A stretch of DNA of 64,000 bases from a virus. Location of the stretch: IMG/VR virus record IMGVR_UViG_3300032288_005778, positions 18,389-82,388 of that record; one strand, written 5' to 3'. The position numbers and the translations under genes are program-made. Below the pieces are notes generated by a model that worked only from the letters and a program-made list of their open reading frames with translations, made no database searches and had not been told where the DNA came from. How positions within the stretch are numbered: position 1 is the first letter of the stretch; each line of letters begins with the position of its first letter. This document shows, piece after piece, positions 7,243 through 9,886 of the stretch.

Positions 7243-7872
7243 TCATCCCCAATACCCTGCTGCTATCTCTAAAGCTTTTATTAGTTTTAGCTGCTTTAGG
7301 ATTTCTATCTCCCAGTCATCAACCACCTGAATATTTGGTACTACAAGCTGGTCTAAAACATACTTAAACTTATCCGACCAACTACTAAAATTATAAAAGT
7401 CAGCAGACGTACTGAGTTTTCCTATCGTTGCATTTTGTTCAACTAACCTCTTGAGCCTTTCTTGGAGCGTGAAAGACTGTAAATTCACTTTATGATGCAA
7501 ACTAGCAAGTAGCTGATAGTTATCAACCTCTACCTCTTTAATTTTCTGTGCTATCAACACCTCTTGCTCACAAAAGTATCCCACTGTGCCATCCTCATGT
7601 TGCACGGTAACTGTATCTTGGTTTGGGTGCATACTAGGTCTACAGAGAATATACACTTCCGCTCCAAACCATTTTTGTTTAGTCCCTTGAATTATGGGAC
7701 TTACAACCCCAACTGGCAGGTTAAACTTCAGTGGAACTTTGTTACTCTCCAGCCATTCAGCGTCAACTTCTATTAAAGAATGCAAATCGTCTGTTTTTTG
7801 CTTATTGCAATTCTTGCAATTAACCCAGTTCCCCAAGGTCGGTTTCACCGTTATTAGTTTTGATTCGCTCAT
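7243..7872 (-). CDS. Hypothetical protein (209 aa) starting inside CRISPR spacer 4 and reading through repeat R5
   Basis: AGAGGAG RBS then ATG at 7872; R5 encodes VKPTLGNWVNCK; long open frame to 7243. Confidence 0.7.
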   Translation of the reverse strand: MSESKLITVKPTLGNWVNCKNCNKQKTDDLHSLIEVDAEWLESNKVPLKFNLPVGVVSPIIQGTKQKWFGAEVYILCRPSMHPNQDTVTVQHEDGTVGYFCEQEVLIAQKIKEVEVDNYQLLASLHHKVNLQSFTLQERLKRLVEQNATIGKLSTSADFYNFSSWSDKFKYVLDQLVVPNIQVVDDWEIEILKQLKLIKALEIAAGYWG

Positions 7873-8152
7873 AAATTCTCCTCTTGCCTTGCCTTGCAAT
7901 TCTTGCAATTAACCCAGTTCCCCAAGTCCGGTTTCACCTTTCAGATCCTTATTCTTAGTAATTGTTCTAATACTTGCAATTAACCCAGTTCCCCAAGTCC
8001 GGTTTCACCTCGATTAATAGATCAAGGGCTTTATCGCTTAACTTGCAATTAACCCAGTTCCCCAAGTCCGGTTTCACCATTTTCTCAGCTATATATTCGT
8101 TTTTGCAAATAATAACTTGCAATTAACCCAGTTCCCCAAGTCCGGTTTCACC
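7813..8152 (-). CRISPR. CRISPR mini-array, 5 x 37-nt repeat GGTGAAACCGGACTTGGGGAACTGGGTTAATTGCAAG
   Basis: Repeats at 8116-8152, 8042-8078, 7973-8009, 7902-7938 (identical) and 7813-7849 (2 mismatches); unique spacers of 37, 32, 34 and 52 nt; 3' end ATTGCAAG resembles ATTGAAA(C/G) repeat ends. Confidence 0.95.
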
Positions 8153-9886
8153 TGCCGTATCCCAGATCGTAAGCTGTGTAAAGGTTTCATCCCCCGATCG
8201 CGCGGATCTCTTATTTTTCTTTGTTCCAGGCTTTTGAGTTTTCGCTGAATTAGCTGAAATGCTTACTGGGTAAGGTGCGCGGGTGCTTGGTAAATTGTCA
8301 AGGTTCAGATTGCTTACGGTGTCTGCTTTTGGGGTTATTTTCACGGCTTTAGAGGTTTTTACATCCCCCCTTCCGCGCTGAGTTCCCCTTTCGGGGTTTA
8401 ATTGGGAGGAATATCCATCTTCCGGTGGTGCTTGCACACCTTCCTGGTGACATTCTTTCTCAGAATCAGAGCCAGGCTTTCGGGTTTCCCCATGTTCCCA
8501 CGCCCAAGCGCGGTACACTGCTGATAATTGTTTTTTGCCTTTGAGTAAGATGTTCTTGGCTGCGTTAGAATCACGTCCTTCAGTGTGACCACATTCTGTA
8601 CAGCGGTGAGTTCTTTCGCTCAATGCTTTCTTTATTTTAGCACCACATTTTGAACAGTCAACCGTAGTGAAATGAGCAGCAACTTTTACAAACTCTCTAT
8701 CAGTATCTTTACACTTTGTTTCAATCTTACTGATTAAATCACCCAGCGCTGAATCAGCAAAACTTTTGTTTAACCCGGCTTTACGTTTTGCACCGTTCTG
8801 TTCATAGCCATTGCCGTCTTCACGCTTTTTGGCTTTGGGTTTACGGTTCAGATTTTGTATCTTTAAGTCTTCCATCACAATCCCAGAATACTCACGCACA
8901 ACCTTAGTAGATAACTTATGGTTAAAAGCGTTGCGGCTGCGGCGGATCTTCTCATGGTGTAGGGCTATTTTTTGATAGGTTTTCTTCTGATTACATCCTC
9001 CTTTCTTCTGCCTAGATGCTTTACGCTGTAACCGTTTTAGCTTGGTTTGTTGTTTCCTAAATAACTTAGGCGGCTCAACTTCTCTACCCTGATCTGTGGT
9101 AATAACTGACAGTAAACCCGGATCAATTCCCACTGATTTATCAGATTTTGGCAATGGGTCATTGGGAATATCAACACATACATGAAGATAATAACCTGAT
9201 GGTTCTTTAACTATTCTAGCTGACCCCCATTCCTGCCAATCATATCTATCAAATAATCCCTTAACTTTAATTTTACCAAGCTTAGGGAACTGGACATAAC
9301 CATTATTTGAACCGGGTATTTTTTCTGGTTTTAGTTCTTTGAGTAAACCCCCGGCATTGAGATTAACAAGTGACTTGATTTTATCATTTCTCCCTTTGAA
9401 TTTTGGCTTTCTACCGGGGTGTTTTGGGGTGACGTAAGCTTTCCATGATTTCTTTAAAGAATCAATCACCCCTGCCTTAAATTTAGTGGGAACATCTGCC
9501 ATAAAGTCAGGAATATTGTCACTCCTATAAAATTCACATTGCCCATATTTATCAGGGTTTTCAATGTGTAAATATTGCCTAATTTCACAATAGGGATGAC
9601 CGTTCTTAGGTCTGATGACACCTGTACCAACCAAGCGGACTTTCTCCCATTTCTCAGTAGACTTACCCTTTTTATCTTCAGTAACAACCTTTCGCCATTT
9701 CCACTGTAGAACCACACCATCGGGAATAACGCGATCGCCTATTTCTTTTTCTCTGTAATATTTCTGTCTTCCTGCTAACTTTAAGGATAGCCCTGTATTC
9801 CACACCCATTTAAGTTTGTTCAGCCATTGCTCAATAGTTTGTGCCTGGGCAATAGTAGGGTACATTTTAAATTCAAGGGTCTTCAT
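8123..9886 (-). CDS. TnpB-derived type V CRISPR effector (Cas12 V-U, C2c8/V-U2-like), 587 aa, RuvC triad intact
   Basis: N-term MKTLEFKMYPT; RuvC-I GIDPG, RuvC-II MEDL, Zn finger CSKC..CTEC, RuvC-III RDSNAAKNI; abuts the array; no tnpA or IS ends seen. Subtype assignment is tentative. Confidence 0.85.
   Translation of the reverse strand: MKTLEFKMYPTIAQAQTIEQWLNKLKWVWNTGLSLKLAGRQKYYREKEIGDRVIPDGVVLQWKWRKVVTEDKKGKSTEKWEKVRLVGTGVIRPKNGHPYCEIRQYLHIENPDKYGQCEFYRSDNIPDFMADVPTKFKAGVIDSLKKSWKAYVTPKHPGRKPKFKGRNDKIKSLVNLNAGGLLKELKPEKIPGSNNGYVQFPKLGKIKVKGLFDRYDWQEWGSARIVKEPSGYYLHVCVDIPNDPLPKSDKSVGIDPGLLSVITTDQGREVEPPKLFRKQQTKLKRLQRKASRQKKGGCNQKKTYQKIALHHEKIRRSRNAFNHKLSTKVVREYSGIVMEDLKIQNLNRKPKAKKREDGNGYEQNGAKRKAGLNKSFADSALGDLISKIETKCKDTDREFVKVAAHFTTVDCSKCGAKIKKALSERTHRCTECGHTEGRDSNAAKNILLKGKKQLSAVYRAWAWEHGETRKPGSDSEKECHQEGVQAPPEDGYSSQLNPERGTQRGRGDVKTSKAVKITPKADTVSNLNLDNLPSTRAPYPVSISANSAKTQKPGTKKNKRSARSGDETFTQLTIWDTAGETGLGELG

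What the first reader, a model, noticed from the sequence alone, without database searches (positions are those of the whole stretch)
7813..9886. Prophage-borne compact TnpB-to-Cas12 type V system whose first repeat lies inside the effector ORF
Seen: a 587-aa RuvC protein with D/E/D intact. Its last residues GETGLGELG and its stop codon are encoded by repeat R1 (8116-8152). Three canonical spacers (37, 32, 34 nt) follow. No cas1/cas2/cas4 or tnpA is in the window, and I saw no spacer match within the window. Known: TnpB omega-RNA overlaps the ORF 3' end, and type V effectors arose repeatedly from TnpB; V-U2/C2c8 occurs in cyanobacteria and is poorly characterised. Inference: a transitional, probably active miniature nuclease used for inter-phage competition, with spacers supplied by host adaptation machinery.
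Basis: partly seen in the sequence, partly recalled or inferred. Interest (0 to 1): 0.85.

Follow-up and report, generated by a model that had tools for sequence, protein, structure and literature searches.

The report
Cyanophage type V-U2 (C2c8) CRISPR locus
A virus of bloom-forming cyanobacteria carries a small CRISPR nuclease of a catalogued but biochemically untested kind, and the floppy end of its gene also encodes the helper RNA that the nuclease needs to use its guides.

Summary
A 587-aa RuvC nuclease (8123-9886, minus) ends 30 nt inside the first of four perfect 37-nt repeats, and spacers of 37, 32 and 34 nt follow. It is not a new kind. NCBIfam files it as C2c8 (type V-U2), and its nearest named relative (76% identity) is the V-U2 effector of Aphanizomenon phage CL131, published in 2018.

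The record is a tailed-phage genome, not a shown prophage. A sister genome is complete with terminal repeats, and I found no integrase.

What I add:
- The disordered tail (residues 469-587) evolves like RNA, not protein.
- It holds covarying hairpins, an anti-repeat, and a hairpin loop that covaries with the last four repeat bases. The characterised sister family Cas12p has the same pseudoknot.
- RNA-library contigs of this stretch have higher depth figures than contigs of the gene's 5' part.
- The tail stays in frame and ends in a conserved QLxLW motif.
- Spacer 1 matches the phage's own genome 37/37, outside the window.

No other spacer target was found, so inter-phage competition is untested. 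This scan reached the same reading on other DNA (e1-6076476, e1-6076491).

The parts
8123..9886 (-). Effector gene, 587 aa, C2c8 / type V-U2. The folded core is residues 1-462 or so. RuvC residues are D255 (9124-9122), E339 (8872-8870) and D439 (8572-8570). Zinc-ribbon cysteines are C411, C414, C429 and C432.
   Evidence: ORF. NCBIfam NF038192 E 7e-144, 480 bits against a cutoff of 350. Pfam OrfB_IS605, Cas12f1-like_TNB and HTH_OrfB. Invariant columns. AF2 pLDDT 80-96 for residues 1-462. Closest fold Cas12p 9jg3/9jfs.
8126..8482 (-). Disordered C-terminal tail (residues 469-587). It is kept in frame but evolves like non-coding RNA.
   Evidence: Tail dN/dS is 0.5-1.2 with a flat codon-position profile and lower dS; the core is 0.06-0.17. 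pLDDT below 50 for residues 463-587. The frame is open in 12 of 13 relatives.
8153..8521 (-). Proposed tracr/omega-like scaffold RNA, running directly into R1. The 5' end is not mapped.
   Evidence: Invariant block of about 60 nt and compensatory hairpins. MFE z-score -2.2. Helix covariation statistics. 454-nt RNA-library contig on 8123-8576 with depth figure 2273. No Rfam family.
8498..8513 (-). Hairpin P1 (CCGCGC-UUGG-GCGUGG). C8508-G8505 (CUUG) is proposed to form a pseudoknot with the last four repeat bases (CAAG).
   Evidence: The loop changes with the repeat end across lineages: CUUG with CAAG, CUUU with AAAG, GUUU with AAAC. Cas12p has the same pseudoknot.
8443..8476 (-). Hairpin P3, with an outer stem CCUGG/CCAGG and an inner stem.
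   Evidence: Pair 63-88 occurs as G-C, A-U and C-G. The inner-stem pairs have changes on both sides.
8394..8404 (-). Anti-repeat CAAUUAAACCC, complementary to repeat bases GGGUUAAUUG with one bulge. A CCCC-GAAA-GGGG hairpin follows at 8396-8385.
   Evidence: At the homologous site, the CL131 clade has anti-repeats of about 30 nt that change with their repeats (duplex energies -29 to -34 kcal/mol). Distant relatives have CAAUCCC opposite GGGAUUG, followed by a tetraloop hairpin.
8159..8176 (-). Codons for Q571-L-T-I-W-D576, a conserved C-terminal peptide motif that resembles a sliding-clamp-binding motif.
   Evidence: Q[LIVM]x[LIVM][WFLMY] occurs in the last 30 aa of 41 of 70 family proteins, against a mean of 0.53 of 70 in shuffled tails. 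Synonymous and conservative codon changes are visible in the junction sequences.
8116..8152 (-). Repeat R1. It overlaps the ORF end; the stop codon is at 8125-8123.
8079..8115 (-). Spacer 1 (37 nt). It matches the phage's own genome 37/37 at G000:C1:13840-13876, in the same sense as a 77-aa ORF. The 5' flank is GCATTGG.
   Evidence: 0 of 100 shuffles reach the match. A sister phage has 36/37 with the same flanks.
7902..8078 (-). R2 (8078-8042), spacer 2 (8041-8010, 32 nt), R3 (8009-7973), spacer 3 (7972-7939, 34 nt), R4 (7938-7902).
   Evidence: No target was found for S2 or S3.
7813..7901 (-). Irregular end of the array: a 52-nt insert holding an RBS and the ATG (7872) of a 209-aa ORF, then R5 with 2 mismatches (7849-7813), which that ORF reads through.
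7203..7226 (-). Degenerate partial sixth repeat. The same linker follows it (7202-7176), then a 112-aa ORF.
   Evidence: 92% identical to 7875-7925
8634..8661 (-). Candidate internal promoter, TTGACT-16-TAAAAT with an upstream TG, inside the ORF.
   Evidence: It scores 10 of 12, but the number of promoter-like sites is not above shuffles, so this is weak.

Best explanation
This is a phage-encoded type V-U2 (C2c8) CRISPR-Cas system of a CL131-like cyanophage that infects filamentous Nostocales. Proposed mechanism:

1. The 3' end of the effector gene does two jobs.
   - As DNA/RNA it encodes a structured scaffold of about 370 nt, equivalent to a tracrRNA or the body of a TnpB omega-RNA. This scaffold runs straight into the CRISPR array.
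   - As protein it is a disordered linker that carries a conserved QLxLW motif near the C-terminus.
2. Each crRNA docks on the scaffold through two contacts. The repeat bases GGGUUAAUUG pair with the anti-repeat CAAUUAAACCC. The last four repeat bases CAAG pair with the loop of hairpin P1 (CUUG) to form a pseudoknot.
3. The first repeat and spacer are joined to the scaffold in cis, as in a natural single guide. Later units must pair in trans.
4. The loaded nuclease (RuvC D255/E339/D439) cuts double-stranded DNA next to a 5' PAM.

Shown here: family membership, array turnover, RNA-level constraint, helix covariation, the tail's predicted disorder, and the conserved motif.

Inferred: RNA ends and processing, DNA cleavage, the PAM, how spacers are acquired, and what the system targets.
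For: Family:
- NF038192 V_cas_c2c8, E 7e-144, above the cutoff.
- NCBI names homologues 'type V CRISPR-associated protein C2c8'.
- 76% identity to the CL131 effector, whose paper assigns it to V-U2.

Real, dynamic array:
- Relatives with 94-96% identical effectors carry 3 to 27 spacers.
- None is shared with the window. 130 spacers were read and 113 are unique.
- Degenerate repeats lie at the end of the array far from the effector.

RNA scaffold:
- A block of about 60 nt is invariant, third codon positions included.
- Tail dN/dS is 0.5-1.2 with a flat codon-position profile. The core is 0.06-0.17.
- On 11 diverse sequences, helices P1 and P3 are 93.1% paired against 82.0% in shuffles (0 of 500 reach it). 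Seven pairs changed on both sides (1 of 500). Slid controls give at most 44%.
- The anti-repeat changes with the repeat in the CL131 clade.
- The P1 loop changes with the repeat's last four bases in three states.

Expression hint: in four RNA-library runs from three studies, contigs over 8123-8576 or 8123-8990 have depth figures 10-56 times those of contigs over the 5' part of the gene.

Mechanistic precedent:
- Cas12p is the best PDB match by sequence, profile and fold.
- It uses a tracrRNA, a 37-nt repeat, the same pseudoknot and a GTN PAM, and it cuts dsDNA.
- Cas12n is reported to carry its tracrRNA in an unstructured C-terminal tail.

Tail: pLDDT is below 50 for residues 463-587.
Against: - No RNA end, processing site, cleavage or PAM was observed. 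The RNA data are assembled contigs, whose depth is a poor measure, and DNA carry-over in RNA libraries cannot be excluded.
- In the window's clade the anti-repeat is only about 10 bp, and it competes with a neighbouring CCCC-GAAA-GGGG hairpin.
- The pseudoknot covariation rests on about five lineages, read partly by eye.
- The window's array is short (3 regular spacers), and ORFs have been built into its end.
- The only spacer with a known target hits the phage itself.
- CL131 has a stop codon and a frameshift in the tail, so the tail peptide is not indispensable.
- The internal promoter is only a consensus match.
Confidence: 0.75

Rival explanations
1. The system is mainly regulatory or self-directed. 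The effector, guided by spacer 1, binds or nicks the phage's own 77-aa gene to control it, as Cas12m or nuclease-dead TnpB-like repressors do, rather than defending against other elements.
For: - Spacer 1 is a perfect 37/37 match to the phage's own genome.
- It sits next to the scaffold, at the position of the newest spacer.
- The CL131 paper itself raised a gene-regulatory role for V-U2.
- No external target was found for any other spacer.
Against: - The RuvC triad is invariant across 70 family members.
- The arrays of L009, L010 and L018 (65 spacers in all) gave no non-array match in 5 related phage genomes, their own included where held.
- Spacers turn over completely between near-identical effectors, which is not what a fixed regulatory guide would do.
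- The guide has the same sense as the mRNA.
- The 5' flank (TGG) differs from the GTN PAM of the sister family, so the site may simply be tolerated.
Confidence: 0.1
2. The locus is a decaying or idle remnant. The nuclease or its array no longer works in this phage, and the features seen are inherited from functional ancestors.
For: - The array has only 3 regular spacers, against 13-27 in relatives.
- ORFs have been inserted into the end of the array, with degenerate repeats.
- A self-matching spacer would be lethal if the system were active with a permissive PAM.
- Deletion variants of the tail exist (L012, and RNA run X16).
Against: - The ORF is intact and all catalytic residues are present.
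- The window's sequence shares strong purifying selection on the core with its relatives (dN/dS 0.06-0.13).
- All scaffold helices are intact in the window.
- RNA-library contigs from related strains cover the scaffold.
Confidence: 0.1
3. It is a mobile IS200/IS605-type TnpB element with an omega-RNA, and the repeats are duplicated transposon ends rather than a CRISPR array.
For: - Pfam OrfB_IS605 and NCBIfam guided_TnpB both match.
- The scaffold overlaps the 3' end of the gene, as in TnpB.
- The flanking ORFs differ between relatives.
Against: - The IS200_TnpB model scores 173.7 against a cutoff of 425, and IS607_TnpB 87.3 against 350.
- No Y1 transposase was found in 0 of 5 records.
- There is one copy per genome.
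- The arrays hold up to 27 unique spacers of 31-41 nt between 37-nt repeats.
Confidence: 0.03

Closest known systems
Type V-U2 (C2c8) locus of Aphanizomenon phage vB_AphaS-CL131 (PMC6293099, 2018; abstract, section 13 and passages read)
   Same: The effector is 76% identical. Both are cyanophage-borne, with the array directly downstream and no other cas genes. The scaffold block and the motif before R1 are the same.
   Different: - The CL131 repeat (36 nt) differs from the window's over most of its length. Its anti-repeat is about 30 nt, against about 10 bp here.
- CL131 has a TGA after ...WEHGET and further stops, so its annotated protein lacks the tail.
- CL131 has 10 spacers, the window 3.
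- The paper reported no tracrRNA and left the array's direction open.
Cas12p / 'Cas12 hacker', type V-P (bioRxiv 10.1101/2025.01.20.633832; abstract and sections 5, 7, 13 and passages read; PDB 9jfs, 9jg3)
   Same: It is the best solved-structure match by sequence (E 9e-29), by family profile (E 9.8e-78, full length) and by fold (E 1e-23). It is phage-encoded and 500-700 aa. It uses a tracrRNA with a 37-nt repeat, and the last four repeat bases form a pseudoknot with the tracrRNA. Its authors describe it as an early TnpB-to-Cas12 intermediate.
   Different: - Identity is only about 20% in the structural alignment.
- Cas12p has large insertions with no counterpart here, so a thioredoxin-binding domain is probably absent.
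- Its repeats end in AAAC, not CAAG.
- I saw no report of a long translated tail holding its tracrRNA, but its figures and supplements were not available to me.
Cas12n (type V-N, formerly V-U4)
   Same: [quoted passage not shown] That is the same gene/RNA overlap as here.
   Different: It is a different branch. The family profile scores PDB 9j09, which that preprint cites as Cas12n, at E 2e-49, below Cas12p and TnpB. It is actinobacterial rather than cyanophage, as far as I recall. I saw no report of a conserved C-terminal motif.
IS200/IS605 TnpB with omega-RNA (ISDra2; PDB 8h1j, 8exa)
   Same: It shares the RuvC and zinc-ribbon core. Its guide scaffold also overlaps the 3' end of the gene, followed directly by the guide.
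   Different: Here there is no transposase and no IS ends, the guide RNA is split, and a multi-spacer array replaces the single flank-derived guide.
TranC (transposon-CRISPR intermediates; Jin et al., Cell 2025). Known to me only through a review and a preprint; the paper itself is not held.
   Same: The concept is the same: an omega-RNA split into tracrRNA and crRNA at the TnpB-to-Cas12 transition.
   Different: LaTranC is a much weaker match (E 2.6e-8). I could not check whether V-U2 is one of the TranC clades.

Membership tests
Type V-U2 / C2c8 | Protein matches the curated C2c8 model above its cutoff | tested here: met
   NF038192, 480.3 bits against a cutoff of 350, E 7e-144, residues 2-420. 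NCBI names homologues of 66% and 93% identity C2c8.
Type V-U2 / C2c8 | TnpB-sized effector with a RuvC-like domain next to a CRISPR array and no adaptation genes | tested here: met
   587 aa with D255/E339/D439. The array abuts the gene. No Cas1 in 0 of 5 phage records. Cas2 and Cas4 were not searched.
Type V-U2 / C2c8 | Occurrence in cyanobacteria and their phages | tested here: met
   Relatives are in Dolichospermum circinale AWQC310F and phage CL131. The model scores over its cutoff in 6 of 401 sampled cyanobacterial genomes. Source names are given.
Cas12p (type V-P, 'Cas12 hacker') | Belongs to the tight sequence family (11 of 12 members over 70% identical) | tested here: not met
   20-21% identity in the Foldseek alignment. 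The profile match is full-length but has large Cas12p-only insertions.
Cas12p (type V-P, 'Cas12 hacker') | tracrRNA whose 5' region forms a pseudoknot with the last 4 nt of the repeat | tested here: met
   The P1 loop changes with the repeat end: CUUG/CAAG, CUUU/AAAG and GUUU/AAAC. This is sequence inference only.
Cas12p (type V-P, 'Cas12 hacker') | Thioredoxin-binding (TB) domain and dependence on TrxA | tested here: inconclusive
   Cas12p segments with no counterpart here are visible. I could not see the paper's domain map to say that they are the TB domain.
Cas12p (type V-P, 'Cas12 hacker') | GTN PAM and dsDNA cleavage | not testable with these tools
   The only protospacer found is the self match, whose 5' flank is TGG.
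IS200/IS605 TnpB (mobile OMEGA element) | Scores over the curated TnpB equivalog cutoffs | tested here: not met
   IS200_TnpB scores 173.7 against 425, and IS607_TnpB 87.3 against 350. Only the broad guided_TnpB subfamily model passes.
IS200/IS605 TnpB (mobile OMEGA element) | Associated TnpA or IS ends, and multiple copies | tested here: not met
   No Y1 transposase in 0 of 5 records. There is one copy in the 82-kb record. IS ends were not searched for explicitly.
Cas12n (type V-N) | tracrRNA encoded in an unstructured C-terminal tail of the effector | tested here: met
   Tail pLDDT is below 50, and it holds the scaffold helices and the anti-repeat. This is a shared architecture, not membership: the profile E-value to PDB 9j09, cited as Cas12n, is 2e-49, weaker than to Cas12p and TnpB.

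The most novel reading that the evidence does not exclude
The effector's tail is dual-coded. Its nucleotides are the guide scaffold. Translation through them is kept only to place a QLxLW sliding-clamp-binding motif at the end of a flexible tether. The nuclease would then ride on beta-clamps, possibly the phage's own DnaN, which is encoded 3 kb away. That would bias interference towards replicating DNA. Such a link between a CRISPR effector and the replisome has not, to my knowledge (recalled), been described for any Cas12.
Probability: 0.2. Interest if true: 0.75.

Novelty: new member of a known kind. Interest (0 to 1): 0.5.

Why it matters
V-U2 is the one original 'V-U' subtype for which I found no named Cas12 effector and no biochemistry. 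My searches turned up only catalogue mentions and the CL131 genome paper, which reported that no tracrRNA could be found.

The scaffold, anti-repeat and pseudoknot mapped here give a concrete single-guide design. They make PAM and cleavage assays of a roughly 470-aa core nuclease directly doable.

The locus is also a clean natural example of one stretch of DNA under two constraints. It is a structured RNA, and it is an open reading frame kept for a terminal peptide motif.

For phage biology, the complete turnover of spacers between near-identical phages that lack Cas1 raises the open question of who loads these arrays.

Tried and rejected
Spacer targets (all negative apart from spacer 1)
- The window array against GenBank phages gave only E=4 chance hits.
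- The L018 and L009 arrays against GenBank phages gave no match.
- The L018 array against 301 genomes of the host family gave 18 genomes with marginal hits at E of about 1e-3 to 1e-2. That is chance level for that many genomes.
- Exact 26-mers of one spacer each from the window, L018 and L009 in IMG/VR found nothing or only the array of origin.
- The L010, L018 and L009 arrays against 5 related phage genomes matched only arrays and repeat fragments.
- I therefore could not infer a PAM.
- The plasmid collection was not searched.

- It proposed that spacer 2 derives from the phage's FtsK-like ATPase (21/32 identity). That is at chance: the best ungapped self-genome match is 21/32, reached by 40 of 100 shuffles. 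For spacer 3 the figures are 22/34 and 79 of 100.

RNA ideas I dropped
- A long-range helix GUGUA/UACAC closing the scaffold. It is invariant in the close set, and I could not see it in distant relatives.
- A second, longer anti-repeat for the window's clade (A1 columns 236-277). Its mismatches in L008, L009 and L018 are not compensated.
- Pairing of the repeat end with CTTGCC further downstream. That element is better read as a local hairpin.

Other dead ends
- The Rfam scan found nothing.
- The first AF2 run, with 6 sequences, was useless (pLDDT 33.6). The 70-sequence run was used instead.
- The count of promoter-like sites is not above shuffles.
- RNA runs are assembled contigs. They show neither ends nor strand, and parts without cover mean nothing.
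- The 209-aa, 112-aa and 295-aa flanking ORFs have no Pfam, NCBIfam or PHROG match, as far as each was scanned. They have no homologue in the flanks of 17 relatives.
- The Cell 2025 TranC paper is not held.
- Supplements were closed. Table S7 and Figures S6-S7 of the CL131 paper, and Supplementary Figures 2, 3 and 9 of the Cas12p preprint, may bear on whether Cas12p includes such loci and on where its tracrRNA lies.

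
Full report
**What is in the sequence.**

On the minus strand, an ATG-started ORF of 587 aa runs from 9886 to 8123. Directly at its end lie four perfect copies of a 37-nt repeat:
- R1 at 8152-8116
- R2 at 8078-8042
- R3 at 8009-7973
- R4 at 7938-7902

A fifth copy with two mismatches lies at 7849-7813. The spacers measure 37, 32 and 34 nt. The stop codon (8125-8123) is inside R1, so the last 30 nt of the ORF are repeat sequence.

Two details differ from its description.
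- R4 / 52 nt / R5 is not a spacer unit. The 52 nt carry a ribosome-binding site and the ATG (7872) of a 209-aa ORF that reads through R5.
- A partial sixth repeat plus the same linker (7226-7176) precedes a further 112-aa ORF.

**What family it is.**

- Pfam finds OrfB_IS605, the Cas12f1-like TNB zinc ribbon and the OrfB HTH domain.
- NCBIfam's curated model for 'type V CRISPR-associated protein C2c8' matches at E 7e-144, with 480 bits against a cutoff of 350.
- The IS200/IS605 and IS607 TnpB equivalogs fall far below their cutoffs.
- A database search gives 588 relatives at E <= 1e-20. NCBI names several of them C2c8, in Dolichospermum, Nostoc, Coleofasciculus and others.
- The model scores over its cutoff in 6 of 401 sampled cyanobacterial genomes.
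- D255, E339 and D439, and cysteines 411, 414 and 429, are invariant in a 70-protein alignment. C432 was located and is invariant in the 6-protein alignment.

**Where it lives.**

- The window is part of an 82,388-bp IMG/VR virus record.
- The window carries a tail-fibre-J-like gene, a tail assembly gene, a portal-like gene, a DnaB helicase and a replication initiator. It also carries its own beta-clamp gene.
- The best named relative of the effector (76% identity over residues 2-498) is ORF061 of Aphanizomenon phage vB_AphaS-CL131. The paper on that phage (abstract, section 13 and passages read) already describes a phage-borne type V-U2 locus with 10 spacers, and calls the phage virulent.
- A sister record that carries a 95%-identical effector is 100,083 bp, complete, and has direct terminal repeats.
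- No tyrosine integrase was found in 0 of 5 related records.
- One relative sits on an 84.6-kb scaffold of a Dolichospermum circinale assembly. I did not check whether that scaffold is integrated.

'Prophage-borne' is therefore not supported.

**The array is real and fast-changing.**

I compared 13 relatives: 11 IMG/VR loci, the Dolichospermum scaffold and CL131.
- Arrays hold from 3 regular spacers (the window) to 27 (L018).
- Of 130 spacers read, 113 are unique.
- None of the window's spacers occurs in the arrays of phages whose effectors are 94-96% identical.
- Degenerate repeats sit at the end of the array far from the effector, so the gene side is the leader side.
- No Cas1 and no Y1 transposase is present in 0 of 5 records, including the complete genome.

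**The tail of the ORF is an RNA gene in disguise.**

The reading frame.
- In 12 of 13 relatives the frame stays open past the conserved ...AWAWEHGET (L011 runs off its contig).
- CL131 alone has a TGA there and further stops downstream.

How it evolves.
- The core has dN/dS of 0.06-0.17, with changes concentrated at third codon positions. For window against L019 the counts by codon position are 26/11/120.
- The tail has dN/dS of 0.5-1.2 and a flat profile (18/26/22).
- The tail's synonymous divergence is less than half that of the core in that pair (dS 0.26 against 0.57).
- This is what nucleotide-level constraint looks like.

Conservation and local structure.
- The DNA alignment shows a block of about 60 nt that is invariant across all clades.
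- It also shows hairpins kept by compensatory change. One example is GGAGG...CCUCC in the window's close relatives, GGGAGA...UCUCCC in CL131 and AUCACC...GGUGAU in L013.

Formal test. On an 11-sequence alignment that includes relatives of 32-39% protein identity, helices P1 and P3 score as follows:

| Measure | Observed | Control |
|---|---|---|
| Cells paired | 93.1% | 82.0% in shuffles (0 of 500 reach it) |
| Pairs changed on both sides | 7 | 1 of 500 shuffles reach it |
| Covariation score | 0.341 | 0.138 (0 of 500) |
| Cells paired with partners slid by 1-3 columns | - | at most 44% |

Two of the 11 rows (L062, L060) are misaligned in P3 and were left in.

Other checks.
- The whole region folds better than shuffles, with z of -2.2 here and -2.5 in CL131.
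- Rfam has no family for it.

**How the repeat docks.**

First contact: the anti-repeat.
- In the CL131 clade the scaffold has an anti-repeat of about 30 nt, right after one hairpin.
- It changes together with the clade's differing repeats. Duplex energies are -29 to -34 kcal/mol for CL131, L017 and L013.
- At the homologous site the window has CAAUUAAACCC (8404-8394), which pairs with GGGUUAAUUG of the repeat with one bulge. L019 has CAAUUAACC.
- Relatives of 32-39% identity have CAAUCCC opposite GGGAUUG. In each case a tetraloop hairpin follows.

Second contact: the pseudoknot. The loop of hairpin P1 (8513-8498) is complementary to the last four bases of the repeat, and it switches with them (some repeat ends were read by eye):

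| Lineage | P1 loop | Repeat end |
|---|---|---|
| Window and CL131 clades | CUUG | CAAG |
| L065, L062 | CUUU | AAAG |
| L060, L063, L064 | GUUU | AAAC |

This is the pseudoknot described for Cas12p, where a conserved AAAC pairs with UUUG of the tracrRNA.

**Relation to characterised systems.**

Cas12p is the closest solved structure.
- By sequence: 9jfs, 'Cas12p', E 9e-29.
- By a profile of the family: E 9.8e-78 over the full length. ISDra2 TnpB scores 3e-53 and 9j09 (cited as Cas12n) scores 2e-49.
- By fold, using a model with pLDDT of 80-96 over residues 1-462: Cas12p-TrxA complexes at E 1e-23, then TnpB, Cas12f and LaTranC.

What is known of Cas12p ('Cas12 hacker'; preprint abstract and sections 5, 7, 13 and passages read).
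- It is phage-encoded.
- It uses a 185-nt tracrRNA and a 37-nt repeat.
- It prefers a GTN PAM and cuts dsDNA.
- It needs host thioredoxin.

How this effector differs from it.
- It shares only about 20% identity with Cas12p.
- It lacks Cas12p's large insertions.
- It is a sister, not a member.

The gene/RNA overlap has a precedent in Cas12n. [quoted passage not shown] Here the tail (residues 463-587) has pLDDT below 50.

**Is it expressed?**

Twenty public runs hold at least part of the stretch; the DNA runs among them are labelled freshwater, lake water or plain metagenome. Six are metatranscriptome libraries. I laid four RNA-library runs from three studies on the stretch; all are Logan contigs:

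| Run | Contig over the scaffold side | Depth figure | Contig over the 5' part of the gene | Depth figure |
|---|---|---|---|---|
| X15 | 8123-8576 (454 nt) | 2273 | 8987-9900 | 40 |
| X16 | 8378-8936 | 95 | 9009-9770 | 8 |
| X17 | 8123-8985 | 60 | 9417-9592 | 3 |
| X18 | 8123-8990 | 118 | 9034-9200 | 8 |

In X15 the repeat unitig has a depth figure of 3357.

Caveats.
- The tool warns that contig depth is a poor measure, and that DNA can be present in RNA libraries.
- The contigs come from related strains with a few percent differences.
- I take this as a hint that a separate, abundant RNA covers the scaffold. It is not proof.

A sigma-70-like site (8661-8634) could drive such an RNA, but sites of that kind are no more frequent here than in shuffles.

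**Why the frame stays open.**

An earlier follow-up on other DNA (e1-6076476, e1-6076491) suggested a clamp-binding-like motif, so I tested for conservation.
- Q[LIVM]x[LIVM][WFLMY] occurs in the last 30 residues of 41 of 70 family proteins.
- Elsewhere in the same proteins it occurs at 0.0095 per 30 residues. In shuffled tails the mean is 0.53 of 70.
- Near-variants such as QLGFWD are not counted in the 41.
- Across lineages the codons change synonymously (ACG/ACT/ACC; CUU/UUG) or conservatively (I/L/V). This short piece is therefore under protein-level selection.
- That it binds a sliding clamp rests on my recollection of the QL[SD]LF consensus. It is untested.

Many family members end ...WDxAxETG. 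In L065 those last residues are the start of R1. The ORF/R1 overlap is thus a family habit with a variable extent:
- inside R1 in the window's clade, L012, L062 and L065
- 5-10 nt before R1 in the CL131-like clade and L055
- 84-97 nt before R1 in L060, L063 and L064

**Spacer targets.**

The self match.
- Spacer 1 matches the phage's own genome 37/37 at G000:C1:13840-13876, inside a 77-aa ORF of unknown function and in the same sense.
- 0 of 100 shuffles come close.
- The complete sister phage has 36/37 with the same flanks.
- The 5' flank is GCATTGG, which is not GTN.

Everything else was negative (see Tried and rejected). Spacers 2 and 3 match the phage's own genome no better than chance.

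What this means.
- The purpose of the system is open, whether that is rival phages, host elements or plasmids.
- The self match is best read as a tolerated recent acquisition without a PAM. A regulatory role is a minority alternative.

**Verdict.**

- This is a genuine and probably active member of the catalogued V-U2/C2c8 family in a CL131-like cyanophage. It is a new member of a known kind.
It is shared by the whole family and paralleled by Cas12n and Cas12p.
- I found no paper describing the V-U2 scaffold RNA (searches; the library lacks most subscription journals, and the TranC paper was not readable).

Noticed in passing
window 6839-7938: Two ORFs (209 aa from ATG 7872; 112 aa from 7177) are built into the end of the array. 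Each is preceded by a repeat or partial repeat plus a near-identical linker with slipped GCAAG units and an RBS. The first reads through R5 in frame. Neither has a family match or a homologue in the flanks of 17 relatives.
   Followed up: partly
window 4032-5168 (minus): A phage-encoded DNA polymerase III beta-clamp with all three Pfam domains lies 3 kb from an effector whose tail ends in a clamp-binding-like motif.
   Followed up: partly
G000:C1:13752-13985 (outside the window; L044:1253-1486): The 77-aa ORF hit by spacer 1 has no Pfam family. It is 95% conserved in one sister phage and replaced by diverged sequence in three others. RNA-library contigs cover it.
   Followed up: partly
window 8010-8377; L012; RNA run X16: A natural deletion variant joins the scaffold at about 8378 directly to a repeat. 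It removes the 3' half of the tail. It is seen in one IMG/VR locus and in one RNA-library contig.
   Followed up: no
window about 8233-8247 (minus); L026, L027, L060, L063: The motif GAACCTTGA(C/A)AA in the tail resembles GAACCTTGAAAACTGAAT, which lies between the C2c8 gene and the array in chromosomal and distant loci. It may be a leader or promoter element.
   Followed up: no
L024, L025, L026 (cyanobacterial chromosomes): Chromosomal C2c8 genes have no long tail, and their arrays start 150-450 nt after the stop. In L024, as in the metagenome loci L060 and L063-L065, the repeat ends in GGGATTGAAAC/G or GGGGTTGAAAC. From memory, that is the common cyanobacterial repeat type.
   Followed up: no
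window 12650-13639 (minus) and 5297-6742: A C-5 cytosine DNA methylase, and a thymidylate-synthase-like protein with a pterin-binding DUF4346 domain.
   Followed up: no
window 50228-63976 (minus): A single ORF of 4582 aa. It was not examined.
   Followed up: no
L013 and L016 arrays: Spacer 1 of L013 and spacer 3 of L016 are the same protospacer with 3 differences. This may reflect separate acquisitions from variants of one target.
   Followed up: no
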